52,376 nucleotides of DNA from Amoebophrya sp. A120. Lineage: Eukaryota > Protista > Dinoflagellata. Below are positions 5,387-52,324 of this stretch, piece after piece. The notes below the pieces were generated by a model. The model made no database searches. It saw only the letters and a program-made list of their open reading frames with translations, and was not told where the DNA came from. The DNA lies in the NCBI GenBank assembly GCA_905178155.1, contig CAJINV010000004.1, positions 1,794,341 through 1,846,716 on the forward strand. The letters run 5' to 3'. How positions within the stretch are numbered: position 1 is the first letter of the stretch; each line of letters opens with the position of its first letter. The translations under genes were made by a program, and so were the position numbers.

Positions 5387-5390
5387 TATT

Positions 5391-5970: not shown

Positions 5971-6048
5971 CATGGGGATTTGGCTTAATAAAAAGATTTG
6001 TAATGCAAGACTTGCATTTATACGAGTGCGATACTTTTGCACAGGATA
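5971..6048. mobile_element. right half of a family A introner, interrupted by the copia element
   Basis: Ends gatttgtaatgcaagacttgcatttatacgagtgcgatacttttgcacaggata, aligning to the right half of 17204-17358. Confidence 0.88.
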
Positions 6049-6053
6049 CGACT

Positions 6054-6468
6054 AACTTTGGAACAGCTGGACGAAGACGGGTGGGACAAACCGGAGGGAA
6101 AATTGGACATCCTACACCAATATCAAATGTAAAAATGTCTGGGTCTGGAAGATTGCCAGGTTTGTCATGCACATTTTGCATGACTCCTGATGTCTGTGAT
6201 GCATGCCCTAGCATCACAGATTTTGTGAGGGATTCCTGATGCCGATACCGCATGACAAATGCTCTTTCCGTGTAGCAAAACTTGGACTCTCTTTGCTGCT
6301 CATGCAATACAGATTTTTTTAGAATCCAAAATCAGCATGACAAGTTGGATTCTTCCAGACCCAGACATTTTTACAGTTGATAACCAAGACAAGGAGGGCG
6401 AGGACCGGACAAGGCAAGACTCTTTGACCGTCGCAAAAGTTGTCCCGCCCGAGCTGGCTGAGGTATAA
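6054..6468 (+). CDS. 3' exons of an unknown host gene (6054-6120, 6388-6468)
   Basis: Splicing out 6121-6387 gives ...TLEQLDEDGWDKPEGKLDILHQDKEGEDRTRQDSLTVAKVVPPELAEV*. The upstream exons must lie beyond the copia element. Confidence 0.7.
6121..6382. mobile_element. introner family B
   Basis: TIR tatcaaatgtaaaaatgtctgggtctggaaga / tcttccagacccagacatttttacagttgata; direct repeat accaa/accaa. Confidence 0.93.
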
Positions 6469-8143: not shown

Positions 8144-11100
8144 GTCGAAGGCGCTCTCCGTCCGCCCTCCTACAAGACCTACCCGGCGCCGAGCTGCGAT
8201 GAGATTGACGAACTGCTGCTCGACAAGGTGGTTTTTTTCCGCCCGACGACCGCCCCGGCCGCGAATCCATCCACGGCCACCCCGATGCCGTATGCGAAAA
8301 TCAATCCCGAGCGAGAAGACGTCAACTTCGACGATTTAGGTATGGACCGGGAGTACCGTACTCCGTACCCGAAGCCCAAGAACTACGACCTGTACGACGA
8401 GATTCACGAGCCGGGGAATCGAGGCGTGGTGAAAAAATTCAACCCCTTCGCGTCCTTTGCCGTGACCCGGTTCCCCGCGAACGCGCCGAAGCAGGTCCGC
8501 GACGCACGCCAGTGGGGCACGATTGCGCAGATGCAGCTGCGCAACACCGACGACATTTGCGCGGCGTGGATTCCGGGCTACGATCCGAACACCTTCAAGA
8601 TGATCGGCGCAAACAAGAATAAAACGAGACCAGGATCAACATCTGGTGGCGACCAACAAATTGCAACGTCGCCAGACAGTAGAAACAACCGTCCTCTCGA
8701 TTATATCCCTCCCGGCACGCCGCCGCTCGCTCCGGGGATGGAGGTCGATTCCCTGGAGCCGACGGCGCGGGACCCACGGTATGGCGCGCCGCGCCAGATC
8801 GGTGGGGAAGCAGAGACCCCGCCCCGGCCGCGGGGGAAAGACGGGGAGTTATTGCCGGACCCGGAGGAAGAGGAACAATACCAGGAGATCGTGAAATTGC
8901 TCAGCAGCGTACCTCCCGGGGAAGACGGTACTTTGCCGATACCACAACCAGCAGCACAGGAAGGAGGTGCAGAAGTCGCAATGCATTTGGAGGCGGGCGA
9001 CAGCGTTTTATTCCCAACATCCGGAGTGGAACAACAACCGGAAGGGACCCAACTACAACCTGCTCCAGATGCAGTAGGTGACGGAACGTCCTCGGACTCA
9101 GCCCTGTTGCAACTACCAGCGGACCTCACCCCAGAGGAGCAAGCGCGGCTGGCAGATGCGAAAGCAGTGGTGCTGGCGGAAACGAATATCACAAACGAGA
9201 TGGAAATCGCAGAAATCGTCGCGTTGGCCGAAGTCGAGCTGAACCTGGCCCCGCTCGTCGGGGAAAACGCGGACGAAACCACGCTGCACCAGTTCATCCT
9301 GTATCCTGTGCAAAGGTATCGTACTCGTATTGCAATCATGCATTACAAATCTTTTTTTAAGGTAAATCCGCATTACAAATTTTATTTCTCATGCTGAGGA
9401 AATTTGTAATGCATTTATACGAGTGCGATACTTTTGCAGTTCATATCCTGGAGGCCGACGCCATGATGGACAGCAACTCCGCCGAGGCAATCGAAATGCT
9501 TGCGGACGCGAGCATATGCATTGCAAATATGTCTGGGTCTGGTAGGATCCAAACTTGTCATGCTGTTTTTGGATTCTAAAAAAATCTGCATTGCATGACC
9601 AGCAAGAGGAGCCCAGATTGTGCTACGCGCAGACGGCATTTGTCATGCGGAATAGGCATCAGGAAGCCTTCCAAAAATCTGTTAATTATGCTAAGTCATG
9701 CACTACAGGCATCATGAGTCATGCAAAATATACATGACAAACCTGGCAATCTTTCAGACCCAGACATTTTTGCAGTTGATAGAGCACGCAGGCCGAGAAA
9801 TTGGAGGAGCTGGACGAAGAGCAGCAGGAAAAGGAGCGCCAGGCGGCCGTGCAGGCGGCGCGGAGGAACTGGAAACTGGCCGCCAACGCGGTCCGCAGAT
9901 ACAGCAAGTCGAAAAACATCGTACAGGCCATGCACGGCAAGACAACAACCACAGGCTCTTCTTCCTTCAAAGATCATCCACAATCACGCCCGCAGGAGCC
10001 AAAAACCACCGACATCGTTTCCAAGATCATGGCCGACGAGGAGGCGGATGAGGAGCTCAAAGCCGCCGCACTGAAGATTCAGGCGGCGCAGCGAGGCAAG
10101 GCGGACCGCAGGAAGGTGGAAGCGCTGAAAGCAGGACAGCAGGAAGGAGCAGAGGGACTCAGTCCAGCCGGCGGCGATGCTATGCAGTGCAAGAGTATCG
10201 TACTCGCAGTATTAATTGCAGTCATGCATTACAAATCTTGTTCCTAACGTCAACCAGCATTACAAATTCCATTTCTCATGCTGAGGCAATTTGTATATGC
10301 GATTCATACTACTACGACATGCTTTTGCAATTCATAGATGCTGGTGAACAACAAACTGCAGGAGAGGGCGTGATCGTCATCGATGAAGAAGATGAAGAGC
10401 TAAAACAAGCGGCAATCCGCATCCAGGCTGTGCAGCGGGGAAAGCAGGACCGTCGGAGGTTGCAGAAACTGGAAGAAGAGAAGAAAGTCGTCGTGTCCGA
10501 CACCGAACTATCAAGTGCAAATATGTCTGGGTCTGGAAGAGTGCAAGTTTGTCATGCTTGTCTCGCATGCCTCTTAAATCTGTAATGCATGACCAGGAAG
10601 GCAGTTTCTTACCTGCCATTAAAGAATGAACTTTCTCCTGCGGGAAGCAAAACACATACGAGCTCAGAAACTTGTCATGCCTGGCTGCATATCGCAGTGC
10701 GTCAACCATTCACAAACTAGCATCACAAGTTTCCAGACGCAGACATATTTGCAATGCATACGAACTGCTAGAATTAATGAACGACGAAAACGCGGACGAA
10801 GAGCTGAAGGCGGCGGCAGTAAAAATCCAGGCGATTCAGCGCGGCAAGGCGGACCGAAGGAAGGTCCAAGAAAAAATATCCGCGCAGAAGGAGGGTACCG
10901 CGATACTAGAAGATCCTGCTGCCGCAACGGTAACTGCTGCACCTAAAGCAGAAGAGCACCAAGACGGTCATCTTGACGAGCAACAAGTGGAACCGCGATC
11001 GTCCACAACCGGCGTCAGTTTTGAGAAAGACGAGGAAACGATGATCGAACTAGACTTAGTCGAGGATGAAGAATTAAAACAGGCCGCGATCAAGATTCAG

Positions 11101-14100: not shown

Positions 14101-17100
14101 GGTGTAGAAGCTCCGGAGGGGGCTACTGCGGCATCTGCAGACCACGTCGCTGCCACTACAACTCCCGGTGCCGGGGAGGGTGATGAAAGTGCGAAAGTTC
14201 CGTCAGATAGCGAGCAGAAAGCCTCTGTGCCGACTGGTGAAGCAAGTGCAGATGCATCCGCTGCTACACCTGCCGCAGTAGAGGAAGGCACACTACCGAC
14301 GGAAGGCGGGGAGCAACTACCAGCAGCAGAAAAACCACAAGGCACAGCCGCGGAGGGTGATGAACCACCGCTGCCGCCTCCGGCAGAATTTGCGGAGCAG
14401 CTGAACCTGTTGCGGGAAGCAGAGGACTTGCTCGCAGAAGTCGCGGCAGACGACGCCGAAGTGCCGACGATCGTCCCGACCGGAGTATCAACAGCCGACG
14501 TGGTGGCAACAGAAGACGTAGTTCTGGCGGAAGGTGCTGCTCCTGCGGACAATGCAACAAATACGCCAGCTGCTGGTGAACAAGCTACAAGGGAGACGAA
14601 ACTATCGGAAGAGGGAGCAAAAGTCCTCGATCCCACGTCCTCATTACAAATCAGCGACCAACCCGACAACTTGGTACCACCAGAGGGAGGGGCTGAGCAA
14701 CAAGCTGCTTCTGGCGCCGGCGACCCAGCAAGTGCGATCGTGAGCAGGGGAGAGCCGATCGATGCTCAGGCTGCTGCAGCAAAGGAGAAGGCGGAAGCCG
14801 CGGCAAAAGCAAAGACGGCTGAGCAAGAGCAAGCCCTTCCGATCGAAGAGGTAGCAGTAGCCGTGGAACCGGTTGCTGTTGATCCGTCTGTGGAGAAAGG
14901 TAAGGCAGAGGATGAAACAAAGCCGTCTGTAGTTCAGTTTGACCAACAAGAAGTTGACCCAGAAGTAGAACACCAACCGGCTTCAACATCAGTGAAAAAG
15001 GATGAGAAGAAGAAGCGCAGTTCCACTGCGTCTGCGTCCTCTAGCCGGCAACAGTCGCCCGGCGCGGCGAGCAGTGTGGTCAGCGAAGACGCCGGTTTGA
15101 AGCTCGATCTAGACACGCATCGGACCGTCGACACAGCGGCGTCCACGCGGCCGCAGACGCGACAAAAGGATCTGCGGTTCCGCGAGGGGGACGACAGCAC
15201 ATTTGTGTATTCTCCGAAACACAAAGACGCGACCAAACGGCCACGGAGCGGCGGGAGTGCCGCCGACCGGAGTCCCAGCTCGGGCGAGTCCCGGTCCCCC
15301 CGGTCGCGCAGTCCGCCCTTGGCGGACATGACGAATCGCGCGGGGCTGACCAGCTGGGTGGGCATGCTGTCCGGTTTAGGCGGGAGTGGGCTTCGTGGTC
15401 CTATCGCGCGCGCGGACGACGCGGTCGGGCGGGAAATTCCCGCGCACCCGCCGGGCATGGTGCAGGGGAAGAAGACAAAATCCTTTATCGAAGACGACCT
15501 GACGCCGGACCAGGAGCGCCTGAGAAATTTGGTCTCGCCAGCCTACGTCCGACACGTTTTGCGGTCCAAGGTGATCGGCATTGGGCCACCGTACAACGCG
15601 AACTTTGGCGCGGGCGGCCGGAAGATCGAGCCGCGGGGGAAATCCGCGGAGGCGGGCGACTGGACGTGGGCCAAGACGCAGAACGTGAAGCAGGACACGC
15701 GCGATTGGTCGCGGTCGTACCAGCACGTGCGCACGGCCTTCGACAACGTCGGCGGAAGAGGCAAGCTGCCGCGACTGAAACTGGGCCCGCCGCCACAGCT
15801 GCAGCCCGTGCAAACCACGCCCACCGCCGCGAGCGTGGCCGCAAAGCGAAGGGCGAACGCGCGGAAAGCGCAGGGAGTCCCGGTCGGACCGCCGGGACGG
15901 GCGTTCCGAAAAACCGCAGGCGCGAAAGAACCGATTCCGGTGGGAAAGACAGAGCCGGATCCAATAGGCGGAATGCATCCGGGCATCGTGAAGGCCGGAA
16001 CGTCCACAAAGTCCTCCCCGTCCTCCGCGGGGAAAAAGGGCAAATCGTCAGCCGCCGAGGAAGGCCGAGGTGGATCTTCCCCCGGCGGGGGGATCGGCGC
16101 CAGTTCCCCCGGCGGATCGTCGCCGGGAGAAAAGAAGAAGAAGCAGAAGGCAAATATGGACAGTCTAGACACGAAAGAAAGTGGTGCAGCGGAGGATGGT
16201 ACAACTACAGCTGCCGGAGGAGCGAGGAAGGGCAAGGGGGTTTCTGCCTCACCAGGAGGAACTGCCGCGGAGGAAATTGACAGATCTCCGGGCGGACGAG
16301 AGGGACAAGAACTTCCAGATGGGGCCGGCGGCGCTGCTGCAGAAATAGAGCCAGATGGTGTAGATGGAGTTGCAATACCGACCGGAGAAACAGGTGGTGC
16401 CATGATCACGACGGAAGACGGGCGTGTAATCCCCGCTTCCGATGACCAAATCGTGCTCTCCGATGGAACCATCATAACGCAGGATGACAGCACCAAGCAA
16501 GAAGCCTTCTCCGCGAGCTCGGCGGAAGAGCCGGGCGAGCAGTTGGTGCATCAGGCGTTGATGGAAGTGGTGGAGAACCTGTCTGGAGGCTATCAAACAA
16601 AAAAAGTTCGTCACGATCACGCATGCGCATTTTTGCAGTACAAAACTGCTTGTCATGCGTAAAAATGCATCACAGCCAAACTGCATTGGGAATTTCCCTA
16701 GTGTTTCTGCAATACAAGGAAAATTTGTCGTGCTAAGAAAATTTGTAATGCAAAGCCTGCAAGTTAGTGACTGTGGCGAACTTTTTTCTCTCCATAGAGG
16801 CACAGCTGCCTTTAGTATCCAGGACGACTTGTGGTCCGAACAGGAGGTGGTGTTGCTATCCACTGCAAATATGTCTGGGTCTGAAAGATGTCATGCGTAT
16901 TTTGCATGACGCGTGATGCCTGTAATGCATGACCCAGCATCACAGAAGAGGAGAAAATTTCAGAATGCTTACTGATGCCTCTCCCGCATGAGAAATGGTG
17001 CCCTCGCCGCATCACATAAACTTGACCCCTACATGCTCCTCATGCAATACAGATTTTTTTAGATTCCAAAAATAGCATCACAAGTTGCATCCTTCCAGAC

Positions 17101-18587
17101 CCAGATGACATATTTGCAATGCATAGGAGCCGCCACGGGACGATGTCGATCCGGAGGAAGAGGACTCGCAGATGGGCGATCTGGAAGAAGAGCTCGTGCA
17201 GAGTATGATTTGCAAAAGTTAAAGTATCGTATTCGTATAAATGCATTACAAATTTTCCCAGCATGAGAAATCAAATTTGTAATGCGGTTTTACCTGAAGA
17301 AAAATATTTGTAATGCAAGACTTGCATTGATACGAGTACGATACTTTTGCACAGGATACAGAGGATCGTCGCGCAACTGCTGCACGGTGGGTTCGGAAGT
17401 GGAGAGGAGAGTGGTAGCGGGGTGACATCGGTTGCAACTGCAATTGGAATTGCAGCAGCACCACATGATGCGGAGGCACCAGGGCAAGAAGTCGAAACAG
17501 CTGCCGTCGGAGAGCGAGAGGCATCCAACTACGAGAGTGCAACAGCAGCAGCTACCGGCACCGCAATAATAGCAACCGAGGATGGAGTCCACGTTCAGCA
17601 ACCTGCGATAGAAGAAGCAGTTCCGAATGATGAGGAAGCAGCAGCACCAGTAGACCATAGAATCAGCGTTAATACCGAGGGCGAAGCGGAAGTGGCAGCG
17701 GCACTGCCCCTGGACGAGGGTGCGCCTACTGAGGTATTAAGCCAAGACCTTCAGGTCGCTGAGTCCTCTGCACCAGCACAGCCACCCGCCGAGACCACAG
17801 TAGACCAACCGCAGTCACCAGCGCAAGGTTTGTATCCAAGAAAAAACGATCGTAGGTGTAAGTAAGTAACTGCTTTTGAGGAACAGCGTTACAAATCTCT
17901 CTGCAAAAACCTGCGATGCGCAGATACTACGCGAGAACGCGCTTGAACGGACCCTACAACGCATGCCCAGCATGGCAGACGCATACATGTCTATGCATGT
18001 CGCGCATTACAGACTTACACTCACGGAGTTTTTTTCTTGGATAGTCTGCGGGCGGCGACGCAGGAGCACTTGGATGTCGACGAAGATGCAACGGCAGTCG
18101 CAGCGGCCGCGTATGGGACTCTGGAACGTGACATTGGTCGCTGATACGCGATTTTATGATGCACAAAGGTAGCGAAAGAGAAAGAGGGAGCTTACGCTTG
18201 CCGCTTGCGCGTCGCGCATTACAGATTTGGAATGGTTTCAATGATGCTATTTACCGCGTCAGGAAATTGTTTATGCGAAATGGCTTGGTCATGTGGAGTG
18301 TATGTGAAAGTCGCTGTGATTCTGATTTCTGGTTGGTGTTCCGCATGACAAATCCTATGAACAGCGACCAACGTAACGTTTGGGAAGCCCATAGCGCGAA
18401 TCAAGAAGTTGCGGACTCGACGTTGCAGCAGATTCTCGAGGCGGAAAACAGCGTCACGAAGGATTTTGAGGATGCAACAGTTTCACAGATCGTCCTGGAG
18501 CAGGGTGTTGCGGACCAGATTTTGGAACGAGCAGTTGCGGAAAACAACGAGGACGCCGCTGTGGGCAGAAGCGATAGAGAGGGGTGA
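8144..18587 (+). CDS. giant IQ-motif repeat protein, >=2,818 aa, 5' end uncertain
   Basis: Exons 8144-9301, 9451-9514, 9787-10180, 10342-10508, 10766-16590, 16802-16856, 17131-17203, 17364-17832, 18049-18111, 18399-18587 join in frame (8,457 nt). There are 12 IQxxQRGKxxR motifs. A possible 28-nt GT-AG intron at 8116-8143 would extend it upstream. Confidence 0.85.
9302..9445. mobile_element. introner family A
   Basis: tatcctgtgcaaaggtatcgtactcgt...acgagtgcgatacttttgcagttcata; repeat tcctg/tcctg; rejoins QFIL|EADA. Confidence 0.93.
9515..9781. mobile_element. introner family B (reverse orientation to 6121)
   Basis: TIR containing atgtctgggtctg; repeat gagca/gagca; rejoins ADASTQAEK. Confidence 0.93.
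10181..10336. mobile_element. introner family A
   Basis: tatgcagtgcaagagtatcg...gcttttgcaattcata; repeat gatgc/gatgc; rejoins GGDAGEQ. Confidence 0.92.
10509..10760. mobile_element. introner family B-like
   Basis: tatcaagtgcaaatatgtctggg...cagacatatttgcaatgcata; repeat cgaac/cgaac; rejoins SDTELLEL. Confidence 0.92.
16591..16796. mobile_element. introner family C
   Basis: tatcaaacaaaaaaagttcgtcac / gtggcgaacttttttctctccata; repeat gaggc/gaggc; interior matches 46538-46747 in reverse. Confidence 0.9.
16857..17125. mobile_element. introner family B
   Basis: tatccactgcaaatatgtctggg...gacatatttgcaatgcata; degenerate repeat gttgc/ggagc; frame restored. Confidence 0.88.
17204..17358. mobile_element. 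introner family A (reverse orientation to 9302)
   Basis: Ends acgagtacgatacttttgcacaggata; repeat cagag/cagag; rejoins LVQRIVAQ. Confidence 0.92.
17833..18043. mobile_element. introner, family C-type ends
   Basis: TIR tatccaagaaaaaa / ttttttcttggata; repeat gtttg/gtctg; rejoins AQGLRAAT. Confidence 0.88.
18112..18393. mobile_element. introner, singleton family
   Basis: Imperfect ~33-bp TIR tatgggactctggaacgtgacattggtcgctg / cagcgaccaacgtaacgtttgggaagcccata; repeat ccgcg/gcgcg. Confidence 0.87.
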
Positions 18588-20153: not shown

Positions 20154-20569
20154 ATGCCGACCACGTCTCCGAAGAAGGCGAACTACCAGGGCGCGGCGAT
20201 CAATGCGCAGGCGTATTTGAAGTCCTCCGGTATGGAAAGGTTTTTGATATCCTGTGCAAAAGTATCGTACTCGTAGTAATTGCAATTATGCATGACAAAT
20301 CTGGTTCTTGAAGTAAAAGTAAAACAGCATGACAAGTTCTAGCTTTCATGCTGAACAAACTTGCAATGTCATTTCTACTAGTACGATTTTTTTGCAATGC
20401 ATATTTGAATCAGTGCGTCAACAGTTGCGTGCAGCAGCGGGTGAACGACCCCTACGTGTTTATGCTGCGGAAATTGACCCAGAACCTGACCGAAGCAGAA
20501 CTCCAGCAGTTCGGGCTCGTGCGGACCGCGAAGGAAAAACAAATCAGGATTTCGGAGGAACAGGGGTAG
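20154..20569 (+). CDS. 84-aa protein with RIIa/Dpy-30-like dimerisation-docking motif
   Basis: Exons 20154-20247 + 20409-20569 give MPTTSPKKANYQGAAINAQAYLKSSGMERFLNQCVNSCVQQRVNDPYVFMLRKL...; the domain call is by pattern only. Confidence 0.72.
20248..20403. mobile_element. introner family A
   Basis: tatcctgtgcaaaagtatcgtactcgtag...tttgcaatgcata; repeat tttga/tttga. Confidence 0.92.
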
Positions 20570-34870: not shown

Positions 34871-35133
34871 CATATGTTCCGAGACCCAAGATAGCAAAAT
34901 CTGCAAAATCGGGAAAAAAATTTCATATGGTACTTTCGGAAACCGGACGTCGCGACGGATCCCGGACGTGTGCCTGCTGCTGGAGTTTCGGCGATTTGAA
35001 CACGCCCTATCGACGTGGTTGATAGAACACGATCGTAGCAAGCCAAAGTCAGCACCTCGTCGTTTCGTAACTTAGCAAAACTCGAACTCGGAACAAACGG
35101 GAAAACCATGGAGAGAGAGAGCAATCGTGAGCA

Positions 35134-41043: not shown

Positions 41044-44000
41044 ATGGTTAAGAAATCCATCGAGGCGATGGCGAAGCAGTCCGTCAACCAGAAAAAGGAT
41101 GCCGAGGAGGGTCGCAAGAAGAAGCGCGAACCCCTCGACGACCAAGCTGTGAAGGCGCAGCTGCACAACAAGGGTTACAGTACCTGCGACGGGAATGTCG
41201 TAATCTACAAGCGGCTCCGCAACGGCAACACGTACTGCGATATCAATTGCATCAGCGCCCATCTTCTGTGCAAATTCTTTTATTTTGTAATGCGAAGTAA
41301 CCACGTATCTGGCATTTTTTCGGGATTGGAACTGCGCAGAAGATGGGCTTTTTTGATTTTTCATAATTTGGAAGCACGGGTGGAACATCATGAAGATGTT
41401 GAAAAAGGACAAAGAAGGCGTGCTGGAGTGGGGCGCCAACGTGCAGGAGGAGTATTTCGCGGTGGCGACCAAGCGCCTCCCGCATTTGTCGCGGGAAGGT
41501 TTTCTCACCATGCTGAACACCACGCACGAGGAACTGAACAAAACCCGGAAGCATGGTCTGGCGCGGAAACGCATTGCGGAGCAGCGGCTGGCGCAGCAGA
41601 ACAGCATTGGCGTGCTCGTGGAAGAGGTCCCGCCCACTTCGGTTTCCAGTGCAAACGCCCTCGCGTCGGAAAAGGCTATGAAATACAAAAGCATCGCACT
41701 CGTACTGATAGATTGCAAACATGCATGACAAATTGCCCTACCTAAAACAGAGCCAAAAACTTCATTTGTCATGAACAGTAAATCTGTAATGCAATTTATA
41801 CTAGTGCGATGCATTTGCACTTCATAAAGGCCGACGACCAGCAATCTACCGGAAGTGTGGCGAACGAGGAGCAGCAGGCCGGCATCTTTGGGGGGAAGGA
41901 GGACGCGCGAGCCGACGACGACGACCTTCCGTCCATGTTGAGTAGCAGTCAGGAAGATGAAGAGGTGGATCAGGATAACTACAAACCCGCCGGCAAAACA
42001 GTGGACTTCCTCGCCGCAGAGGATGAGCACCCAGACTTTGAGTTCGGTGGCGACAGTGACACCAACGACAAGCGCACTGCCCTCCTCTCTGAGTTCGACG
42101 TGACGGGCGAAACAATCGGCGGGGCTGCGCAGTCCAGCTCTTCCTCTGCTGGCCCCTCCGGCCCCAGCAGCTCTTCCACCGGCCACAACTTCATCTCCGG
42201 CCAGGCCGCGCGCACCAGGATGTTCGGGGTCTCCGGAGGGATGGAAGATGATGATGATGAGGAATCCGTGTGGATTGTCCCGAAAGATGCTAGCGCGAAA
42301 CTGTGGACGGGAGCGACGAGGCAGCAAATCACCGACGCCTCGCATACAATGATGAAAAACAAGAAGGACTGCGGCATTGAAGATGTAATCCCACTCTTTA
42401 AATATGAAGAGTTGCACGACGTCGGGTGTGCGGTTTTAGAGGCTATCTTCTCGCGCGGTTGGGGAATGGATATGTTTCGGGAAGACGCGGAGGTTTTGCG
42501 CTCTTACCCTTCGCTCCAGTGGTTGCAGTGGGCGGACTGGCAGGAGGACGACTTCGTGCCGTCTGGTCTGCCGGAGCCGCCGGCGTGGTTCATCAAGGGC
42601 CAGCCGGAGGAGCTCCGGGAGATGATCAGGGACTCCTCCGCGAATACGTGGATCGAGATGTTGATCGAGGTGGCGGACGACGGAAAACTGGACCTGGCGA
42701 ACAAGATGCTGCGGAAAATTCAGCTGCAGAAGCCGAACCAGTGGCAGATCGTCCTGTCGGGCTTGGCGAAGACGAAGCACTGGGAGTCCTTTCCTGCCCT
42801 CGCGGTTACCTACAAGGCCTTTGAGGTGTTCCTGGGTGAGGCCGGGTTGCAAATCGAGAACCACAACAAGGGGCCGAAGTACCTGCTGAACGACAGCGTG
42901 AAAATCATGCCGCAGCCCGGTGTGGAAATTGATGCCGCTGCAATGATATGATCTGCAAATGTGTCTTCTTGTAGGAACCGCATGACAAATGAGCTTTTTG
43001 CGACAGATGGCATTTGTCATGTTATGTCTAGCATGGAAGGGGAATTTGTCATGCACAGGTGCGATTTGTATGCTTTGACACATTTGCAGAGAATAAGTGA
43101 TGGACGTCGAAGCTACAGTCACCAAACTTTCCAAAGCGCAGACCCCCTTCGTCAAGCTGCGGCAGCACATCCACAAGGCCGTCGAAAAGGTGGCGAAGAA
43201 GTGCCAGGGGTTGTTGGAAGAAGCGGTGCAGGCTGCGCTGGACATCGATGATTACAACTTCTTCTGCCAGACCCGACTGTATTTATTTTCATTTAGTCAC
43301 ATTAGAGGTTTTTTTGCAAATTAAAGACGGGGCAGCCCGGATGCGCGGCGCTATGCCTCCGCCCTGGTTCCCGGAGATTCAGCGCGGGCTTGATTTGTGC
43401 ACCACGCCACTCGCTGCGCAGGAGGGCCTTTGCGGGCCTCACTTGGAGTGATGTTGATCTGCGCCGCGCCAAACAACTTCCCGCCATTCGCTTTGTGCAG
43501 CCCCGGGAGTCTCATTGCCTGCAGGGCCGGCAGCCGCCCTCAGGTTTCCGCACATTTGCACGCGCCGGTGGCCTGTTTTGTTCGCAGCAAGCTCGGTTCT
43601 TGAGTACATGAATTTACAAACAAATTTATGCGCGTCTACACATGTAAAAAAACTACACACACAGGGACAGCAAAGTGCGGGAGCAACTTGTCGCGGCCTT
43701 GAACGTGGCCGAGAAGGACAGTTTATCGGAGAAGCGGGCGGCAAGGGCTATCTACTACATGAAGTACATGGACATGCACCTCGAGGAGGCGGCCCGCGCC
43801 GCTGCTTCCCAGGCCATGCTGATGCCGTCTGACAAAGTTTTCCGCGTGGCCCTCGCGTACTACTACTACGGAAAGCCGACGCTCGAGGGCGCCACCGAAG
43901 GCGTCCGGCAGTTGAGCAGTCTGTTGGATACGTTGTTGGACATTGATGACGAAGGGGTGAAAATTCTCGATGTCGTATGAAGATGCAAGAAACTCCTCCG

Positions 44001-44439
44001 GCTGGAAGTTGTCATGCGTTTACGCATGACACATTTTGACAAAAGAAACAGAAGCGCATGACAACCTAACGCCGGAAATGTTTTTCGCATCCTATACGCC
44101 GCCGAGCTGCAGGACTCTATCGCCGCCATCAGCCAGTTTCAGGAGAACTGCAAAAAGTTCATTGCCCAGTCCGACATGATTAAGCTGACCGCGATTTCCA
44201 GCAACATGGCCAACATTTTGATCGAGTGGAAGCGGAACAACAAGGTGGAGGCGAAGCGCCAAAACGCTGCCAAGACCAGTAAGGAAAAAGATGCGGACCG
44301 CGCGGAGGGACCGGCGGCGAAGAAACTGAAATCGGAAAAGCAGGCCCAGCTGTACGACGTGAAGCAGGACATTTTGAGGGACGCGACGTCCGGCGCTAGC
44401 AGTTCCTCAACCGCCCTGCCGTCGAACAAATCGGCGTAG
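41044..44439 (+). CDS. 814-aa unknown protein carried inside the hAT-like element
   Basis: Exons 41044-41240, 41371-41676, 41832-42946, 43101-43278, 43665-43975, 44102-44439 (2,445 nt, in frame). Four introners plus a GT-AG intron at 43279-43664; no domain recognised. Confidence 0.75.
41241..41365. mobile_element. introner, degenerate singleton
   Basis: Inverted gcccatcttctgtgca / tgcgcagaagatgggc, TA ends; no surviving direct repeat; frame restored. Confidence 0.65.
41677..41826. mobile_element. introner family A-like
   Basis: tatgaaatacaaaagcatcgcact...agtgcgatgcatttgcacttcata; repeat aaggc/aaggc. Confidence 0.9.
42947..43095. mobile_element. introner with B-like ends
   Basis: tatgatctgcaaatgtgtc / gacacatttgcagagaata; repeat aatga/agtga. 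Confidence 0.87.
43976..44096. mobile_element. introner, singleton
   Basis: tatgaagatgcaagaaac..ccggc / gccgg..gtttttcgcatcctata; repeat tgtcg/cgccg; rejoins LDVAELQD. Confidence 0.82.
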
Positions 44440-46031
44440 GAATTGCAAAACGCCCGGACTTGCTCTGTTTTCTGTTTTCACTTTTGCATAGACGGCGAAA
44501 ATACTCTGCGCCCATACAAAACAGAAAACAGCCAAGGTCCGGGCGTTTTGGAGCTGCATACGAACGCCAGCCGCAACACCGATTTGTTCTTTCAGGAGTT
44601 ACAGAAGATGAAGGACGCGAACTAGCGGAGCCAGGAGCGGGGCCGTGGTTCGACCAGAAATTTTGCAAACCAAGAAAATGCTATGTGTAGTTCTTTTTGA
44701 ATAATTATGATATATAGAAAAGACCCTTGCTTATCTCAGTCGATTTTCAAAAAAATAAGCATCTGCCGCTAGGCAGTTTCAGAATGTACCATTAGGCAGA
44801 ACCCAACGACAGAACTGCGTTTTCTTATCAAAGACCGTCGCTGTTTTTCGCTGTGAAGCCCTTGCGGTTTCAGCAGCTCGAGAACTAACCTTTTACCGTC
44901 GTGCCGGTTTATGTCACGAAGCGAGCGAAGACTCTATCTAAAAGAATCACCAGTGATGTAGTTTCGAAGCCAAGCAGCAGGCAGCGGCGCATTCCGCCAC
45001 TTGTCACGCTTGCAAAAATGAATACCAAGAAACAAACTGAGAAATATCGCACTCCAGTCTATTGCTAGCGGATCCTTCAGCAAATTCGTAATTTTGTAAA
45101 GCCGACCGACAGACCAGCTTCCAGGTCTTCGAGAAATTAGGTCGCGCAGAGAACTAACTTTTACCCTTTTCGCAACTGAGATGCAGAAAAACCCCGATAC
45201 TGGCCGCAGAGTACACTACTTCTGCCTGCAGATTAGAACTTGTATTTTACTCAATGTTACAACTCTAAAAACCTCAGCACCGTCGTAGACTATACCGCAG
45301 CAGGGAGCGATGCCTGGTTCTGCAAGATAGCCTATAAACGCCTCCAGTGCAGTCCTGACACAACGAGATGATCTACAGCAATTTGCAGCCCTCGATCCAC
45401 AGCCGAGCCAAGGCGTGAAGCTCAATCTTGCTAGAAAACCCCCCACAAAAATCAAGACGTGAACGATTGCCGTGAACTTTTTCTGACTCCTTATCTTAGA
45501 AAGACGACTTGCATGGCTTGCCACATCAGAACTCGAAGAAGTGTGGTGTTCGTTGTGTCTTCTAGGTACAGGCGCAGGTGAACTTCGGAGCGGACAGCAG
45601 AACCACGGAGGAGAGGCAGACATGCGGTCGGTTTTTTTTTATGTGGAGCTGGAGGCTTAGCAGTGAGAAAAATGAGAACCCAGTGGTGTCGTGCCCAACC
45701 CTCGACCCGCGCTTGCACCCAGCAGAAACGTCCTCTCCGGGAGGCGTCTGTGGGGCTTCTGTGCATCTTCTGAAACACAGCACGAGAGCAATTAACAGCA
45801 GCAGCGCCACCAGTAACGACGGGGGGCCGAGGCAGTAGTATTGAAATAGTGCTGCGGCTGTTCGATTCGAGGCGATGTTGAACAGGGTGGACCACGACAA
45901 GCCTGTGCCCGACGGGGTCCGATGATCCACAAGGACGAGAATCACAACAGGACGCTTGCGGGATTTCTATTTTCGTTTTTCCCATTTTCCCGATTTTGCT
46001 ATCTTGGTTCTCCGGAACATATGACTCCAGT

Positions 46032-47575
46032 CTCTCTCGTGGACCAGTATGGCAAAAGCGCAGGCTTATTGAAAGACGAGAAACGCAGCGGCAAGTTGTA
46101 CTTCAAGGCCCTCGACTTGCTACTACAGCGATATCTTCACCAAGAAGGAGAACCTCCGATGATGAAGGGTGTTGAAGCCGCCACAAGATCATCGTCCCCG
46201 AGAAAAGCAACTACTACCTGGGAACGCGCGCAGGCGTTGGTCGAAGCCGCGCACTCTCGAATATTCTCTAATCCTACAGTGGACCCACATGAGGAGCGGT
46301 TATTTCGAGAGCTCGATGCCCAGTTCGACGCGGAAGAGCGGTTAGCCGAAGGACTCGGCGACGTTGACCCGACGCTGCTAGAAAACCCGCCGCCGGGTGC
46401 TTTGGTCAGGCCGGTCTCCGCGCTCTTTGACTTGGACGAGGTGGATTCCGACGGAAGGAGAACGGGGCTGCGTGGCCGCTGGAACAGGCAGACAAATGCG
46501 GACCCGTTTCTCCTCCGCTTCACTCCAGACCTCGACGTATCCAAGAAAAAAACACCATCTCGAGCACATTTAGGAGGTTTTCGATCAGAGATTTGTCTCG
46601 CATGACAAATTTTCCTTGTATTGCAAAAACATAAGGGAGACCGCGTAAGTATAAATCTTGACTGTGATGCATTTCTGCGCATGACAAAAATTTTTGTAAA
46701 TGCAAAAACGTGCAAAATTGATTGCGATAGTGTTTTTTTCTTGCATACGACGTCCCGCACTTGCAGTACGCGATGGTTAATGTCACGCACTCCTCGGAGT
46801 TATTCCTGCAACCATATCAAATCAATGCAAATATGTCTGGGTCTGGAAGAGCGCAACGTTTGTCATGTACACTTTACATGAGCCACGATGTCCGTGATTC
46901 ATGTTCTAGCACCACAGATGAGATTTTGTGAGGGCATAATTCTGATTCCAATACCGCATGAGAAATGGCCTCTCCGCTTAGCAAAAGTTGGACCTCTTTT
47001 CCTGTTCATGCAATACAGATTTTGGTCGTAAAGTGGATGACTAATATGGGTAGACGCTGAGAGGCAAAAAGGTTCATCCAATACAGATTTTGATTTTCCG
47101 TAGGTAGAGTCCAAAGGCAGCATCACAAGTTCGTTGCAATCTTCCAGACGCAGACCCAGACATATTTGCAAAGCATAACCCGAAGCACAGCACAAAACCC
47201 AGCTCACTTCCCGCCCGGAAGCGGACCCTGGAGCTGGACTCTCTCTACAACCTCCGGGACATTATGCCTATTGCTGCTGCATCGCAGTTTGCGACTTCTG
47301 CAGATCGAGCTGTCTTCGAGGCGCCGCCAGGGCTTCACAACATGTGTGTTGAGTCGTGTGCTCTGTACATGTGGGAATACGTGAATGGGCACTTCGCGGA
47401 CACGCCGGACGATGCTGCGGATGATCCCATCTTTAGAGTATTTCTCCGGGCACGGGGAGCGCTTGTGCGGTACGCCGAAGATCCTGACTATCCCGGCGCC
47501 GTCTCCAAAGTTGGCTTTTTTGGCGACCCAGACGCTGTGGCGGAAGTCCTACACGCGCGATGGCAGGGTGATTGA
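46032..47575 (+). CDS. 3' part of the transposon-interrupted host gene (46032-46537, 46753-46814, 47183-47575)
   Basis: Two introners removed give one frame SLVDQYGK...DLDVPHLQ...LQPKHST...RWQGD*; function unknown. Confidence 0.68.
46538..46747. mobile_element. introner family C
   Basis: tatccaagaaaaaaacac / gtgtttttttcttgcata; repeat cgacg/cgacg. Confidence 0.92.
46815..47177. mobile_element. introner family B with internal expansion
   Basis: tatcaaatcaatgcaaatatgtctggg...cccagacatatttgcaaagcata; repeat aacca/acccg. Confidence 0.87.
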
Positions 47576-48235
47576 GCAACGGTCTGGTGGGGTGGATCAA
47601 TTTACTTTAGTATCTTCACCCCAGAAAAAATCCCACCTGGCGGACCTGTCTTGTTTTCCAGCAGCTCAGATCCAGACTGATTGTGATTGTCTATCAGCAT
47701 TCCGCTTGTAGTACTGATACTGTGAATAAAATGTATACTTCATATGAAGGCTTCAAGAAGTTTAAGTACTTGAATTTTTGACGTTCTCCTTCTGGTGTAC
47801 GTGAAGTAAACAGAGTTCTAGTTCTACTTGTGTTCGTGAAGTAACCGGAATTGAAGCTGAAATCGGTTCTTGATGTCATCATCCTGGTGGCCTATAGTGG
47901 ACGATGATCACGACCACTACGTCGTGAGCTTCATCATACGACATCGACAGTATAGCGCCTTTTTGCGAGTATTTGGGATGTGCCTCCCAGTCGTCGCCAA
48001 GAACCAAGAGGTCGCTTATCATGATCTCGAAAGAGATCCAACGACCAAATAATTCATCCATACGCTCATACGACATTTTAGGTCCAGGTGGTCGATCGAT
48101 CCATCTGTGTCCTCTCGGCCGACATTGGGAATAGAGATGCATTGAAAGCTGCAAGAACCTCCGTCTCTAATCTTGTGTGTGTGTCACCAGCCGCGCACTA
48201 CTTCTAAACAGCGTCCTGCTCCCGAGGAAAGAAAG

Positions 48236-51200
48236 ATGGCCTGCTCAAAAAGACCACGAGCCCCGGGAATAAATCACAAGAAGGGGTCCTCGTCGTACGG
48301 GGGCTCAATGGTTGTTTATTCTCTGTTGCCTTTATTCGCGGCGCTTCTTCAGGGCCCAGCGACCGTGCAAGGAAAGCGGTTTACTGCGTACCAGCCCCCG
48401 CGGCCACTGGGACCACACAGTCCGCGGCCGGATGAAGGAGACGACCGCACATCAGCTGCAACATCCGCGCGGCGCCATCCCACTTCACCTCAAGGAACAC
48501 CGCTTCAAAACGTCAACTGCCATGGCGCCGCTGGAACAAGAACACGAACGCATACAACACAGCGAGAAAAAAATCACATCCCGAATCAGCCACGATATCG
48601 CTCAGGACCTGCGCATTCCCCGATGCTGGGCTACAACTACGACCAATATGAACAACGGTCACGTGGATCAATGCCACCAACGTCGCCACCGCAGATGCCG
48701 AGGATCTATCAGGGCGGGCCGTACGGTTACGGCGACCATAGTTCTTATAATTTTTGGGGTGCGCAGATGCAAATGCAACACAACATGATCAACCAGTGGT
48801 CTCAGTCTCCCAACCAAGACTACCGAAATATCTCTTGGGAGCAGTTTATGGGACGTCGACTCTCAAATGTTACATAATTCATCTCAACTGTGACATAATA
48901 AATTTGTGACACAAGAATCACAAGCGGAGCAAAAGATTAAAAAAAGGGCCGCAAGCTTGCAGCACTTGTGTCACAGATTTGGCACGACAGGTTACTGGCC
49001 TGCTTAGCACTTCGAGGATCTGCCATCCTGCGAAGTAGCAGCTTCACCGTGTGCTGGCAGCTGATAGCAATCTTGCAATTGCAGCATTGCAAATTCATGT
49101 AACAGTTGCGAATGCAAGAACGCAAATGCTTGAGAGCTCCATACAGTTTGCGTACCCCCCTGTCGGAGTTGTGCCACCGAATTTCTACCCCGCCCGCGGA
49201 CACCAACTACCCTGGCAGCACGATGGAAGCGCGTTTCCGCAGCAGCCGCGAGGAGCAGGTGGAGTGCATGTGCAGCACAACCACAATGTAGGTCAAAATA
49301 ACTCACCGATAGAAGAAGTACAACAGGAAGTACAACACCATGCTCCGTTTTTACCCCACCGATCACCAGATGAGCAACAAGTAGGTGCGCAGCAACAGCC
49401 CCAGCCCCAGTTGAGCCCGTATTCGGGAAAATATGGGCAGATCGGAGGCGGCTTTCCGGGCGGCGTGGACGGGACCTCTCCTTCCGGAGGAGGTAGACCT
49501 ATTTCTACTACTACCGGACCTGCTTCCGATCATCATAATTCTAGCCGCGGGACGAGCGGGGCTGCACAACAAGGTACTAGTAGCCCGGCTCCTGCTATGA
49601 GCATTTCTCATCACAGTCCTGCAGTGGCTTTGTGGTCAAGAAGTAGACAAAACCAAAGTCAACAATCCGCTCGGGAGCAGCGGGAACAAGACCACCAGGA
49701 GCACCGCGACTCTACTGCTTGGGACAGTTTTCACGAAGATGTGTTCGTCAGGACGGGCCTGCAATTGGAGCAGCAACGAGAACAGGAGGCAGCTACGCTG
49801 CGCAATGCCGTAGCATCTTCCTCGTCCTACAACCATTGCACATTGGAGCAGCAGATACAAGAGCAGGGCCGTCGCGCCCGCCAGCGCCAGGGAATGCTGG
49901 AGACGCACCACGAGCTGCAGCGGCAGCGGTATGACAGCGCACAACTCCCCCTTTCTCTCATTTGTCATGCAAAATCCCAACTCCCTTGTGGCACTGTGAC
50001 TGTTTGCCTGACAAATTCCACATGAAGCCCAAAGCCAAACAGCACTAAATTTGGTCGTACATCAATTTGTCAAACATAGGCTTCACGTGTGCTTGTGTAG
50101 TTTCTATTGCTGTTCTTGCCATCTATGCAAATGAGGGGGAGGGCAAGTTGTGCACTCTCGTCATAAGCGGGCACTTCTCAACACAGCCCTGGAAGTCTTC
50201 CAGAACACGCGCGCGCCCGTGCAGGTGAACATGCTTGCAGGAGCTGCAGACCACGCCGAGCAAAATCAGATGAACTTTCTGCCGGAGCCCCCGCCGGAAC
50301 ATCTTCAGGGTGGAGGACTGATTTTCGGCGGCCAACAACCGTCGTGGGCGGGTGCAGCTGCTGATGGACCCGTGTATCCTGAGTAAAAACGTCCCCAACC
50401 AATACGTCAAGATGGGAAATCTGCTACACAAATCAGACAGCTTTGGCTGTTGCGCATGACAAGTTGCGCCTTGTAGTGTAGTCCTGCTTAGGTAGTTCAG
50501 CAGCGTCACAGATCTAGCCTGCTATGCTGAACGGAGCATGACAAATTCCGAAGCACGACTAGAAAATGCCTCTCATGGGGCTCTGCATGAGAAACATCAT
50601 CAGCATGCAGATTTGCATGACAGCTATGGGGTGGGGACGTTTTTACACAGGATACCGCGCGAGGTGACTCTAATATTATCCCACAGCAGGAGCACCACCT
50701 GCAGCAGGGACAAGAAATGCTCGCTCAAGGCGGAGACGCACTGGCACTGCAGAGAGATCATTCATCTCCTCCCATCGACTACGCGCGTAGAGCGCCGGTC
50801 GACGTGCAAGAACATCTTAGTAAAGCAGGTGAAGATCATCTCCAACAGCTTGACAAAAGCTCTGCGCAGTTATCCGATCCCTCCCCAAAACAGTCGTCCA
50901 CGCCGGAAGATACTTGTTTCCTGTGTTGCTGCGAAGAGGAACTCGGGAATCCGTTGCTGAAGTTATGGCGTTCTCAAACATTACACTCTCAACTGTTACA
51001 TGATTTGTCATGCAAAATCACAATTAGTATTGATACGATCAAGCTGCTCCGCATGACAAATTCTCGAAGAGCCAAACAGGCTCGGGATCTGTGCCAAGTC
51101 TGTCATGCTAGACGCGCAAGGTCACCCCTTTGACTTTTGCCATTCTTGCATCACAAATTCATGTAACAGTTGAGAATGTAACAGTTGAGAACGCCATAGA

Positions 51201-52324
51201 AGTTCTGCCCAACCTGCAAGGCCAAAATCCACGGACCCTGTTGGGCCATGTACCGCCAGCAGCAGCGAAGTAATCCGGGTGGCGCCGGTGCTTCAGCTAG
51301 TAGTACTACTTCTGGTCGTGGAGGTGCTGCGCACCATAACATTGACCCGTGTCCGCATTGCCAACAACCGCTTTTCGGTGCCACCGCGGAGGCCCACCTG
51401 GGACTTTTCACCTCCAAAGCAGTACAACCGTTTGGCCGCAATAAAGGGGCTGGGGCTGGGGCTCTAACATCGCCCAAGGTCTGGCTGGCCACTGCGAAAA
51501 AACAACTCGGGGAAAGGAAGAGAAAAAATAAGATGAAGCGAGCATGTGGACTTTTAATATGCTCTGGAGGTCGTGGAGCAGCATGTGCAGGAGATGTTGA
51601 CAGGGGCGGCTGCGACAATCGTACCATGCAGAGCTCCGGGCGACGCGGTTGGGGAGTACTAGAAGTAGAACAGCAGCGAGCTTCATCCGGTAGAAATGCC
51701 GCGACCAGCCAGGAGAACTTACTCCTGCTGCAGCCCAAATTTCGCTCCCTATTGGCGCACAACTACCGTAAGATTTTGCGGGACGAAGAGAGACAGCAGA
51801 GAGGGCCGCGAGGGATTCTCGATAGCGATACGGTGCGTGACTGGCAAAATAAGTCACGGTCGTGCGCATCTTCTTTCAACAATAGCGTGGTCGACCCAGA
51901 GGGGGTAGAGGCTGAGATAGTACAACAAGAACAGACTGAAACTGGCACGACGTCCAGACTCGCAAACTCCCCAAGGAGGAGCAGCTTCAGCCACGCCCGC
52001 AGCTTTGATACTACTTGCCCCGAAGGAGCGACTGGACGACCGCACCAGCCGAGGACCACACGAGAAATTGTATCCCTAGACGAAGCTTGGCAACATCCTT
52101 TGACTGCAACTTCTCCATCCAGGTCCGGTCTTCGTCAGAACCTCAGAACTGATTCGTTCGTCGAACCTGTGGTAAGTGATACCGTATCAACTCATCTGGT
52201 AACCAAATGCGTGCGCGCGCGCGCGCAGAGCGCGCGCCGGCCCACGAAGCCGGCGCGCGCGCTCTGCGCGCTTGCGATATTGCTTAGCAAACGCAGCGCG
52301 AAGGCAGTTGCCGTTACCATATAG
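48236..52324 (+). CDS. ~1,000-aa protein with N-terminal hydrophobic segment, Q-rich regions and RING-variant (C4HC3) finger; 3' end uncertain
   Basis: Exons 48236-48846, 49149-49929, 50171-50374, 50660-50963, 51204-52324. CFLC..CPTCKAKIHGPCW..CPHC is only complete after splicing. A GTAAGT at 52172 may start a further intron. Confidence 0.8.
48847..49143. mobile_element. introner family I (reverse orientation to 50964)
   Basis: tatgg...ccata ends; repeat cagtt/cagtt; interior aligns in reverse with 50964-51198. Confidence 0.87.
49930..50165. mobile_element. introner family G
   Basis: tatgacagcgcacaact / agttgtgcactctcgtcata; repeat agcgg/agcgg. Confidence 0.9.
50375..50654. mobile_element. 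introner family H
   Basis: tatcctgagtaaaaacgtcccca / tggggacgtttttacacaggata; repeat ccgtg/ccgcg. Confidence 0.92.
50964..51198. mobile_element. introner family I
   Basis: Perfect TIR tatggcgttctcaa / ttgagaacgccata; repeat gaagt/gaagt; splits the RING-variant finger. Confidence 0.93.

What the first reader, a model, noticed from the sequence alone, without database searches (positions are those of the whole stretch)
5971..51203. MITE-like elements acting as non-GT-AG introns under one geometric rule (TA...TA, TIR, +5 nt)
Seen: 38 complete inserts of more than 10 unrelated sequence families sit in coding DNA. 37 start and end with TA, all have TIRs, and most have a 5-bp direct repeat. Lengths fall in all three phases, yet removing element+5 nt restored the frame in 38/38 cases and completed FN3, TRAF-finger, RING-variant and transposase motifs. 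Known: non-canonical introner elements with inverted and direct repeats are reported in Amoebophrya genomes, and to my knowledge their excision mechanism is unresolved. Inference: a precise, non-standard removal system recognises the element ends, either by RNA splicing or, less likely, by ciliate-IES-like DNA excision.
Basis: partly seen in the sequence, partly recalled or inferred. Interest (0 to 1): 0.9.

Follow-up and report, generated by a model that had tools for sequence, protein, structure and literature searches.

The report
One splice rule for transposon introns
In a marine parasite whose transposon-derived introns lack the usual GT-AG ends, RNA data show each tested element is cut out together with one copy of its 5-base target repeat, apparently always at the same offset, which gives a testable splice code for a known but unexplained intron class.

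Summary
The window encodes proteins that NCBI names Amoebophrya sp. A120. I count 40 TA…TA hairpin elements (2 uncertain), 24 with a perfect 5-bp direct repeat. RNA-type contigs remove exactly element+5 nt in 19 of 40, fit it on one side in 3 more, and contradict none; DNA-type contigs keep the elements. These are the introner elements of Farhat et al. 2021, so the class is known.

What I did not find in print is a fixed cut. At 9 junctions with imperfect repeats only one register fits all: N|TA…ATA-NNNN|, 1 nt before the first TA and 4 nt after the last; two junctions pin it exactly. Splicing survives loss of the direct repeat, works in both orientations, and skips in-frame GT…AG pairs. A second population repeats the geometry (82 of 110 perfect 5-bp repeats). 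The catalyst is untested: a modified spliceosome is likelier (~0.6) than a Euglena-like nuclease/ligase. 'Unrelated families' is overstated. Farhat's figures were not visible and might show the register. The scan noted similar introns in three other genomes.

The parts
5972..6048 (+). 3' half of an element; a Copia-like LTR element (1-5971) abuts it
6121..6382 (+). element, direct repeat 5/5
9302..9445 (+). element, repeat 5/5, in IQ-repeat gene 8120-18587
   Evidence: laid, no row shown
9515..9781 (+). element, repeat 5/5, opposite orientation to 6121/16857/46815
   Evidence: RNA piece starts at 9782, one side only
10181..10336 (+). element, repeat 5/5
   Evidence: RNA contig length fits +5
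10509..10760 (+). element, repeat 5/5
   Evidence: RNA contig length fits +5
16591..16796 (+). element, repeat 5/5
   Evidence: RNA contig length fits +5 in two samples
16857..17125 (+). element, repeat 3/5
   Evidence: RNA contig length fits +5 in two samples
17204..17358 (+). element, repeat 5/5, opposite orientation to 10181/20248
17833..18043 (+). element, repeat 4/5; an in-frame GT..AG pair at its ends is not used
   Evidence: RNA: cut offsets -2..0, +5 removed
18112..18393 (+). element, repeat 4/5; an in-frame GT..AG pair at its ends is not used
   Evidence: RNA: offsets -4..0, +5 removed
20248..20403 (+). element, repeat 5/5, in a short gene 20154-20569
   Evidence: RNA contig joins 20242 to 20404
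25205..25313 (+). element, repeat 4/5, FN3 gene 22957-27589
   Evidence: public protein P0001 identical to +5 model
25642..25797 (+). element, repeat 5/5
   Evidence: P0001 identical to model
25949..26216 (+). element, repeat 5/5, splits first FN3 domain
26732..26944 (+). element, repeat 5/5, splits second FN3 domain
27022..27426 (+). element, repeat 5/5
   Evidence: RNA piece starts at 27427, one side
28663..28924 (+). element, repeat 5/5, splits TRAF-like zinc finger of gene 28286-32356
   Evidence: P0002 and homologues; RNA one side
29287..29538 (+). element, repeat 5/5
29597..29746 (+). element, repeat 5/5; public model keeps 13 residues and starts the intron at an inner TAT (29636), again removing +5
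30026..30183 (+). element, repeat 5/5, 5' end TAC
30266..30561 (+). element, repeat 5/5
30658..30916 (+). element, repeat 5/5, 5' end TAG
31405..31675 (+). element, repeat 4/5
31712..31870 (+). element, repeat 5/5
35466..35553 (+). uncertain: decayed element or a 90-nt GT-AG intron
   Evidence: no RNA cover
35872..35997 (+). uncertain decayed element, repeat 0/5
   Evidence: frame only; no RNA cover
36975..37124 (+). element, repeat 3/5
   Evidence: frame only; no joint listed
37567..37694 (+). decayed element, repeat 1/5
   Evidence: frame only; no joint listed
38750..38922 (+). element, repeat 2/5; intron 38749-38926
   Evidence: RNA joint 38748->38927, offsets -1..0
41241..41365 (+). decayed element, repeat 0/5; intron exactly 41240-41369
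   Evidence: RNA joint 41239->41370, no ambiguity, X1 and X3
41677..41826 (+). element, repeat 5/5
   Evidence: RNA joint skips 155 in three runs
42947..43095 (+). element, repeat 4/5
   Evidence: RNA joint skips 154
43279..43664 (+). canonical GT-AG intron skipped in the same contigs (control that the runs are RNA)
43976..44096 (+). element, repeat 3/5
   Evidence: RNA joint skips 126, offsets -2..0
44437..44560 (+). element, repeat 2/5, 5' end TAG; intron exactly 44436-44564
   Evidence: RNA joint 44435->44565, no ambiguity, three runs
46538..46747 (+). element, repeat 5/5, opposite orientation to 16591
   Evidence: 16-nt loose end joins 46532 to 46748
46815..47177 (+). element, repeat 3/5, arms differ by 4 nt
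   Evidence: RNA joint skips 368, offsets -3..-1
48847..49143 (+). element, repeat 5/5
   Evidence: RNA joint skips 302
49930..50165 (+). element, repeat 5/5
   Evidence: RNA joint skips 241
50375..50654 (+). element, repeat 4/5; intron 50374-50658
   Evidence: RNA joint 50373->50659, offsets -1..0, three runs
50964..51198 (+). element, repeat 5/5, splits a RING-variant cysteine pattern

Best explanation
These are non-autonomous TA…TA DNA transposons with a 5-bp target duplication that are removed from the RNA together with one copy of the duplication, at an inferred fixed register (N|TA…ATA-NNNN|), likely by a modified major spliceosome. Shown: removal of element+5 nt in RNA, retention in DNA, both orientations, no need for an intact direct repeat, no use of nearby AG. 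Strongly indicated (~0.9 for this window): the donor cut lies 1 nt before the 5' TA and the acceptor cut 4 nt after the 3' ATA, measured from the terminal motifs and not from the inner stem. Inferred (~0.6): the donor is read as a GUA-type site with a free first base (U at +2 and A at +3 kept), the long hairpin brings the ends together in place of U1-led bridging, and the acceptor is set by distance from the AUA, whose first A (-7) or last A (-5) would be the branch point. Because 1+4 equals the duplication length, every insertion is erased without a scar, whatever the target sequence, which would explain how the elements spread through coding DNA.
For: Register: offset -1 fits 9 of 9 informative junctions, 0 fits 6, -2 fits 5, -3 fits 3, -4 fits 1, -5 none; 41241 and 44437 allow only -1; chance about 1.3e-3 for any common offset if each junction chose freely. 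Repeat decayed to 0-2 of 5 at 41241, 44437, 38750 yet cut precisely. Arms of unequal length at 41241, 44437, 46815 still give +5 from the terminal TAs. In-frame GT..AG pairs at 17833 and 18112 are passed over in two samples. None of 39 elements reads GT-AG in any of the six +5 registers (2 GC-AG, 1 AT-AC). All four canonical introns of the window start GTA. Farhat's Table S4: all nine commonest A120 non-canonical ends have T second, all nine A25 ones are TT-NN. A120 keeps U2, U4, U5, U6 and nearly all spliceosomal proteins, U1 not detected (PMC7789003). Fritillaria removes transposon-derived non-canonical introns with the U2 spliceosome (PMC13326754 introduction; review PMC11282704). Second population: 82 of 110 perfect 5-bp repeats; coding-phase test implies +5 class in 13 of 14 confident and 51 of 86 scored cases.
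Against: No lariat, circle or factor was tested. Pairing of the terminal UAU/AUA (predicted in 28 of 40) would hide the donor from U6. Only 2 of 4 canonical introns have A at -7 and only one has a clear branch motif there. The stricter conservation of the 3' ATA (40 of 40) over the 5' TAT (36 of 40) is not significant (P=0.12), and in the second population 2 of 8 oriented deviant ends fall on the 3' side (weak calls). The register rests on 9 junctions in assembled contigs of one study, which hide minor isoforms. One contig joins across the 11-kb element at 34869-46025 with a 3' cut 2-3 nt after ATA, off the rule. The public model uses an inner donor at 29636. Farhat et al. call the sites variable relative to the hairpin.
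Confidence: 0.55

Rival explanations
1. Same fixed register, but cut by a hairpin-guided nuclease and ligase outside the spliceosome, as proposed for Euglena nonconventional introns.
For: Same design as the Euglena code 5'-N3CDG…CH'GN5-6|R: short paired motif at fixed, unequal distances from the two cuts (PMC12501133 abstract and discussion). No base is required at +1 or at -4..-1. AG is ignored. Hairpins in 39 of 40. U1 not detected.
Against: U at +2 and A at +3 match the window's canonical donors, and A25 keeps U at +2 with a different repeat. Cuts follow the terminal motifs where the arms differ in length. No candidate enzyme.
Confidence: 0.3
2. The length rule (+5) is real but the cut position varies inside the direct repeat, as Farhat et al. 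describe; the common register in this window is a small-sample effect.
For: Farhat Fig. 3 legend and Fig. S23 legend. Only 2 junctions are unambiguous. An off-rule join at the 11-kb element.
Against: One offset fits 9 of 9, chance about 1e-3; perfect repeats make aligner placement arbitrary, which by itself produces 'variable' sites; T at +2 in all nine top A120 classes.
Confidence: 0.08
3. Programmed DNA excision, like ciliate IES removal, produces clean templates.
For: TA ends, inverted repeats and transposon origin resemble IESs (own knowledge). Only 15 of 1246 joints of the DNA-type run were shown.
Against: DNA-type contigs at flat depth 24-30 run unbroken from exon into element at both ends; the runs that lack the elements also lack a GT-AG intron; the mirror register is excluded at 8 of 9 junctions, so the cut follows the transcribed strand although elements lie both ways; both TAs are removed, whereas IES excision leaves one (own knowledge).
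Confidence: 0.03
4. The junctions are reverse-transcriptase template-switch artefacts at direct repeats flanking hairpins.
For: Direct repeats plus secondary structure favour such artefacts (PMC4176328 passages).
Against: Precise junctions where the repeat is 0-2 of 5 (41241, 44437, 38750); the skipped form is the main contig path in three runs; retention breaks the ORF in 38 of 39 cases; homologous proteins are collinear with the skipped form.
Confidence: 0.03

Closest known systems
Introner elements among the non-canonical introns of Amoebophrya A120/A25 (Farhat et al. 2021, PMC7789003)
   Same: Same organism by protein name; inverted repeats starting TAT, seven looser bases, then AAA; direct repeats of 3-5 nt (5 bp in the Fig. 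S19 legend); RNA-supported; about 29,850 repeated introns in A120.
   Different: The paper reports no clear splice signature, variable sites relative to the hairpin and a commonest repeat of four bases. Here: repeat length always 5, one register, repeat dispensable, AG skipped, both orientations. Its figures were not visible to me.
Euglena nonconventional introns (PMC12501133; review PMC11282704)
   Same: MITE-like origin, paired ends, cuts at fixed unequal distances from a short paired motif, no GT-AG.
   Different: Motif CDG/CH'G with spacers 3 and 5-6 and a purine opening the next exon; here TAT/ATA with spacers 1 and 4 and no exon preference. Circular release is reported there, untested here.
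Fritillaria borealis non-canonical introns (PMC13326754; review PMC11282704)
   Same: Transposon-derived, TIR and TSD, mass gain, removed precisely.
   Different: Preferred ends AG-AC/AG-AT with exonic TAC, U1 conserved; here no end dinucleotide beyond U at +2, and U1 not detected.
Micromonas, Aureococcus and Symbiodiniaceae introners (PMC9860276, PMC12130899)
   Same: Splicing removes element plus one TSD copy so that mRNA length is unchanged.
   Different: They carry or co-opt GY and AG and so need particular target sites; these need none.
IS3EU/GingerRoot DNA transposons (PMC10045372)
   Same: TA..TA termini.
   Different: TSD usually 6 bp, here 5; no autonomous partner identified here.

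Membership tests
Amoebophrya A120 introner elements | Located in A120 genes | tested here: met
   P0001 and P0002 are A120 proteins, 100% identical to window exons
Amoebophrya A120 introner elements | Intron supported by RNA with non-GT-AG ends | tested here: met
   19 of 40 full length, 3 one-sided, none contradicted; no GT-AG register in 39 tested
Amoebophrya A120 introner elements | Terminal inverted repeat starting TAT, N7, AAA | tested here: met
   TAT in 36 of 40; A at positions 11-13 in 32-33 of 39
Amoebophrya A120 introner elements | Direct repeat of 3-5 nt at the borders | tested here: met
   5 bp, perfect in 24 of 40
Amoebophrya A120 introner elements | Repeated in the genome | tested here: met
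   two clusters hold 17-19 of 40; DNA-type run piles thousands-fold on elements
U2-type spliceosomal intron | GT/GC donor and AG acceptor | tested here: not met
   30 different end pairs among 39 under the inferred register; only U at +2 is constant
U2-type spliceosomal intron | Lariat with branch adenosine | not testable with these tools
   only assembled contigs held the strain; A is invariant at -7 and -5
U2-type spliceosomal intron | Dependence on U2/U5/U6 snRNPs | not testable with these tools
   components present per PMC7789003
Euglenid-type nonconventional intron | CDG…CH'G motif with 3 and 5-6 nt spacers | tested here: not met
   TAT…ATA with spacers 1 and 4
Euglenid-type nonconventional intron | Ends brought together by base pairing | tested here: met
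   predicted folding only: inner stem in 36 of 40
Euglenid-type nonconventional intron | Release as full-length circle | not testable with these tools
   no raw reads of this strain
Ciliate-type IES | Absent from the expressed genome's DNA | tested here: not met
   DNA-type contigs cross exon-element borders unbroken; contigs drop rare alleles
MITE (non-autonomous TIR transposon) | Short, TIR, TSD of fixed length, many copies | tested here: met
   88-405 bp
MITE (non-autonomous TIR transposon) | Empty site or cognate transposase | tested here: inconclusive
   0 of 114 joined flanks found among the 134 loci; the window's transposase-like gene sits in an element with other ends
IS3EU/GingerRoot | TA..TA termini with 6-bp TSD | tested here: not met
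   TA..TA met, TSD 5 bp: 0 perfect 6-mers in 110
Group I/II self-splicing intron or other Rfam family | Match to a covariance model | tested here: not met
   0 matches at gathering score in the window

The most novel reading that the evidence does not exclude
A120 runs a genome-wide, AG-free splice code, N|UAU…AUA-NNNN|, read by a U1-less spliceosome that takes its donor from the element's end, branches within the terminal AUA and sets the acceptor by a 4-nt ruler matched to the transposase's 5-bp target duplication, so that any such transposon, in either orientation and at any site, becomes a scarless intron.
Probability: 0.35. Interest if true: 0.88.

Novelty: already known. Interest (0 to 1): 0.6.

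Why it matters
Over 60% of the introns of A120 lack GT-AG ends, and how they are removed is an open question in the describing paper. A single register turns that into testable statements: where a branch point or nuclease cut must lie, which bases to mutate, and how to re-annotate tens of thousands of introns whose borders aligners place arbitrarily. It would be the second defined non-canonical splice code of this geometry after Euglena's, in an unrelated lineage, and it explains how a transposon can invade coding DNA without needing particular target sites. The elements themselves are not new.

Tried and rejected
No whole genome is held for this window, so the rule could not be tested genome-wide. 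Raw-read run X8 (same species label): 138 reads laid, all partial, on one element end with a foreign flank; uninformative. Including DNA-type run X5 in the first lay filled the joint table with element-to-element joins (15 of 1246 shown), so five elements there have no RNA row. Two rows (46538->47288 and 50465->50632, sides 22-26 nt, letters between unknown) were not followed. Candidates 25392-25566 and 35856-35995 were dropped: the first lies in a canonical intron confirmed by P0001, the second was redefined as 35872-35997. The right end of 43976 was moved from 44094 to the next TA, 44096; that correction is first recorded after the lay. Homologue searches with the IQ-gene exon and the transposase-like exon found nothing. 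The single-sequence fold of the transposase-like exon had pLDDT 35.6 and was not searched. A fixed branch point at -7 in canonical introns was looked for and fits 2 of 4. 5'/3' asymmetry of conservation is not significant. No empty sites among the metagenome loci. Ten elements were duplicates (120 calls, 110 unique; 146 seed matches in all), and 24 of 110 lacked enough flank for the phase test.

Full report
Identity. An exon of the FN3 gene matches one public protein at 100%, named by its source Amoebophrya sp. A120; the TRAF-like gene matches a second. No whole genome was available. All genes that carry elements lie on the + strand.

The observation. A scan for TA-bounded inverted repeats, with the other 15 start dinucleotides as control, gave perfect 5-bp flanking repeats in 22 of 159 TA pairs against 0-2 of 269-770 for each other dinucleotide. 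My curated list has 40 complete elements of 88-405 bp, two with uncertain ends, plus a 3' half at 5972-6048. The repeat is perfect in 24 and at least 4 of 5 in 30; no other repeat length from 1 to 10 is enriched. Predicted folding is stronger than shuffles (z below -2) in 39 of 40. Removing element+5 from all, with four canonical introns, gives unbroken frames of 2826, 1025, 709, 1373, 844, 380 and 1036 codons; retaining an element breaks the frame in 38 of 39. The +5 class wins the frame test in 36 of 40, the other four lying near ORF ends. My model of the FN3 gene equals the public 1016-aa protein letter for letter (five elements); the TRAF-like gene agrees at 7 of 8 elements, the public model starting the intron of 29597 at an inner TAT, again with +5, while homologue P0004 favours full removal. 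The public models may rest on the same RNA data as below, so they are not independent of it. The families are not unrelated: two clusters hold 17-19 of 40, and 35 of 40 share an internal motif.

RNA against DNA. Ten runs were listed; I laid X1, X4, X8, X5 on 9200-29199 and X1, X3, X4 on 35000-50900. X1, X3 and X4 are only guessed to be RNA, but they skip the GT-AG intron 43279-43664 and their depth ranges from 0 to 142 along the window; they are two samples of one study. Of 13 joints, ten are element joints and each skips element+5; one is the canonical intron; two have short sides and were not followed. A loose end adds 46538. In one search, 20248 is joined directly and contig lengths between pieces (167, 128, 61) equal the +5 prediction for seven elements, the last two gaps in both samples. 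DNA-type run X5 has flat depth 24-30 and its contigs cross exon-element borders and break only 25-30 nt inside the repeats; contigs drop rare alleles and only 15 of 1246 joints were shown, so rare empty sites are not excluded.

The register. Where the two 5-mers differ, the RNA tells which copy each base came from. Nine junctions are informative. With the T of the 5' TA as 0, an intron start at -1 fits all nine; 0 fits six, -2 five, -3 three, -4 one, -5 none; 41241 and 44437 allow only -1. If each junction chose an offset freely, the chance of one common offset is about 1.3e-3. The intron is thus N-TA…ATA-NNNN. The element ends were listed before the second lay, except that of 43976, moved by 2 nt. 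Four consequences. (1) The direct repeat is not the signal: it has decayed to 0-2 of 5 at 41241, 44437 and 38750. (2) Cuts follow the terminal motifs, since arms unequal by 1-4 nt (41241, 44437, 46815) do not shift them. (3) AG is not scanned for: 17833 and 18112 offer in-frame GT..AG pairs (element+2) and are still cut at +5. (4) Orientation is free: 10181 and 20248 against 17204, and 16591 against 46538, are the same families in opposite directions, though no register-informative pair within one family was available. Under this register the only constant bases near the cuts are U+2, A+3 and A-7, U-6, A-5 (TA by construction). One result is off the rule: a single X4 contig joins 34871 to 46024 across an 11-kb inverted-repeat element, with the 3' cut 2-3 nt after ATA.

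A second population. A 24-nt seed from inside one arm found 134 loci, all in one metagenome assembly, 69-90% identical to window copies and with no match to the window's exons. Of 110 unique elements, 82 have a perfect 5-bp repeat, 101 at least 4 of 5, none a 6-bp repeat, and 101 end TA..TA. A coding-phase test that ignores the repeat implies the +5 class in 13 of 14 confident and 51 of 86 scored cases. This has no RNA and says nothing on the register.

Mechanism. Insertion by a DDE transposase with a 5-bp stagger is inferred from the TIR/TSD anatomy; the enzyme is unknown. For removal I favour a modified major spliceosome (about 0.6 given RNA splicing): U+2/A+3 match the GTA of all four canonical donors here, A120 retains U2, U4, U5, U6 and most proteins but no detected U1, and a tunicate shows that the U2 spliceosome can adapt to such introns. 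Against it: no acceptor dinucleotide, a free first base, predicted pairing of the donor, and no consistent branch distance in the four canonical introns. The main rival is a Euglena-like pathway. DNA excision and template switching are unlikely for the reasons given under rivals.

What is known. Farhat et al. 2021 (PMC7789003; I read the abstract, sections 10, 11, 12, 16, further passages and supplement parts 2-3; figures not held) describe these elements in this strain, call the splice sites variable and see no signature, yet all nine commonest A120 ends in their Table S4 have T second. Their Fig. 3 and S19-S25 could show the register; I saw legends only. Gozashti et al. 2025 (PMC12130899; passages, and 20 of 58 A120 rows of one supplement; two supplement files not searched) give mixed automated calls, TSD 2-5 and differing mechanisms. 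Other papers: PMC11282704, PMC9860276, PMC11453091, PMC12621601, PMC10045372, PMC4176328 and bioRxiv 2024.09.05.611473 (passages); PMC12501133 (abstract, discussion); PMC13326754 (introduction, passages). Roy et al. 2023 and Henriet et al. 2019 were not read. Searches found no statement of a fixed register; the library lacks most subscription papers. The IES and spliceosome background is from my own knowledge.

Verdict. Real, RNA-confirmed, and a known class in a known genome; the single register, the dispensable repeat and the skipped AGs appear unreported and make the open question of their splicing testable. Interest 0.6.

Noticed in passing
window 34869-46025: An 11.2-kb element with ~50-bp inverted ends (90% identical) and an apparent 4-bp target duplication splits ORF 33503-34891 from 46051-47572. 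It holds two genes full of introners; 35131-39939 has D, D and CxxH motifs by eye and hAT-like Atlas hits under 0.9 (lead only). One X4 contig joins across it off the +5 rule; an X1 contig runs out of its right end into another flank, suggesting a second copy. Farhat et al. report no transposase in A120.
   Followed up: partly
window 1-5971: Copia-like LTR retrotransposon on the - strand (LTRs 99% identical over 278 nt) abuts the 3' half of an introner.
   Followed up: partly
window 29597-29746: Inner TAT at 29636 with a 3/5 repeat is used as donor by the public gene model; possible alternative donor under the same rule, or an annotation error.
   Followed up: partly
all elements: Internal motif GCAT(G/T/C)A(C/G)A(A/G) or its complement occurs 99 times in 8.3 kb of elements and twice in 44.1 kb outside; a candidate transposase or splicing-factor site.
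   Followed up: partly
window 20154-20569: Short well-expressed gene whose spliced product looks like a Dpy-30/RIIa dimerisation motif (recalled resemblance; no Pfam hit on the separate exons).
   Followed up: no
window 44626-46301 and 18587-19560: RNA contigs run about 1 kb or more past stop codons, one into the next ORF; long UTRs or read-through in a co-oriented gene block. A contig does not show a single transcript.
   Followed up: no
window 28876-28924, run X8: A different strain or species under the same label carries this family's end in RNA reads with another flank (131 reads), i.e. an unspliced or non-intronic copy.
   Followed up: no
window 20790-22800 and 40000-40950: Two stretches without introners and with odd composition (GC-rich; A/T runs with a 20-nt inverted repeat at 40384-40518), possibly other repeats.
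   Followed up: no
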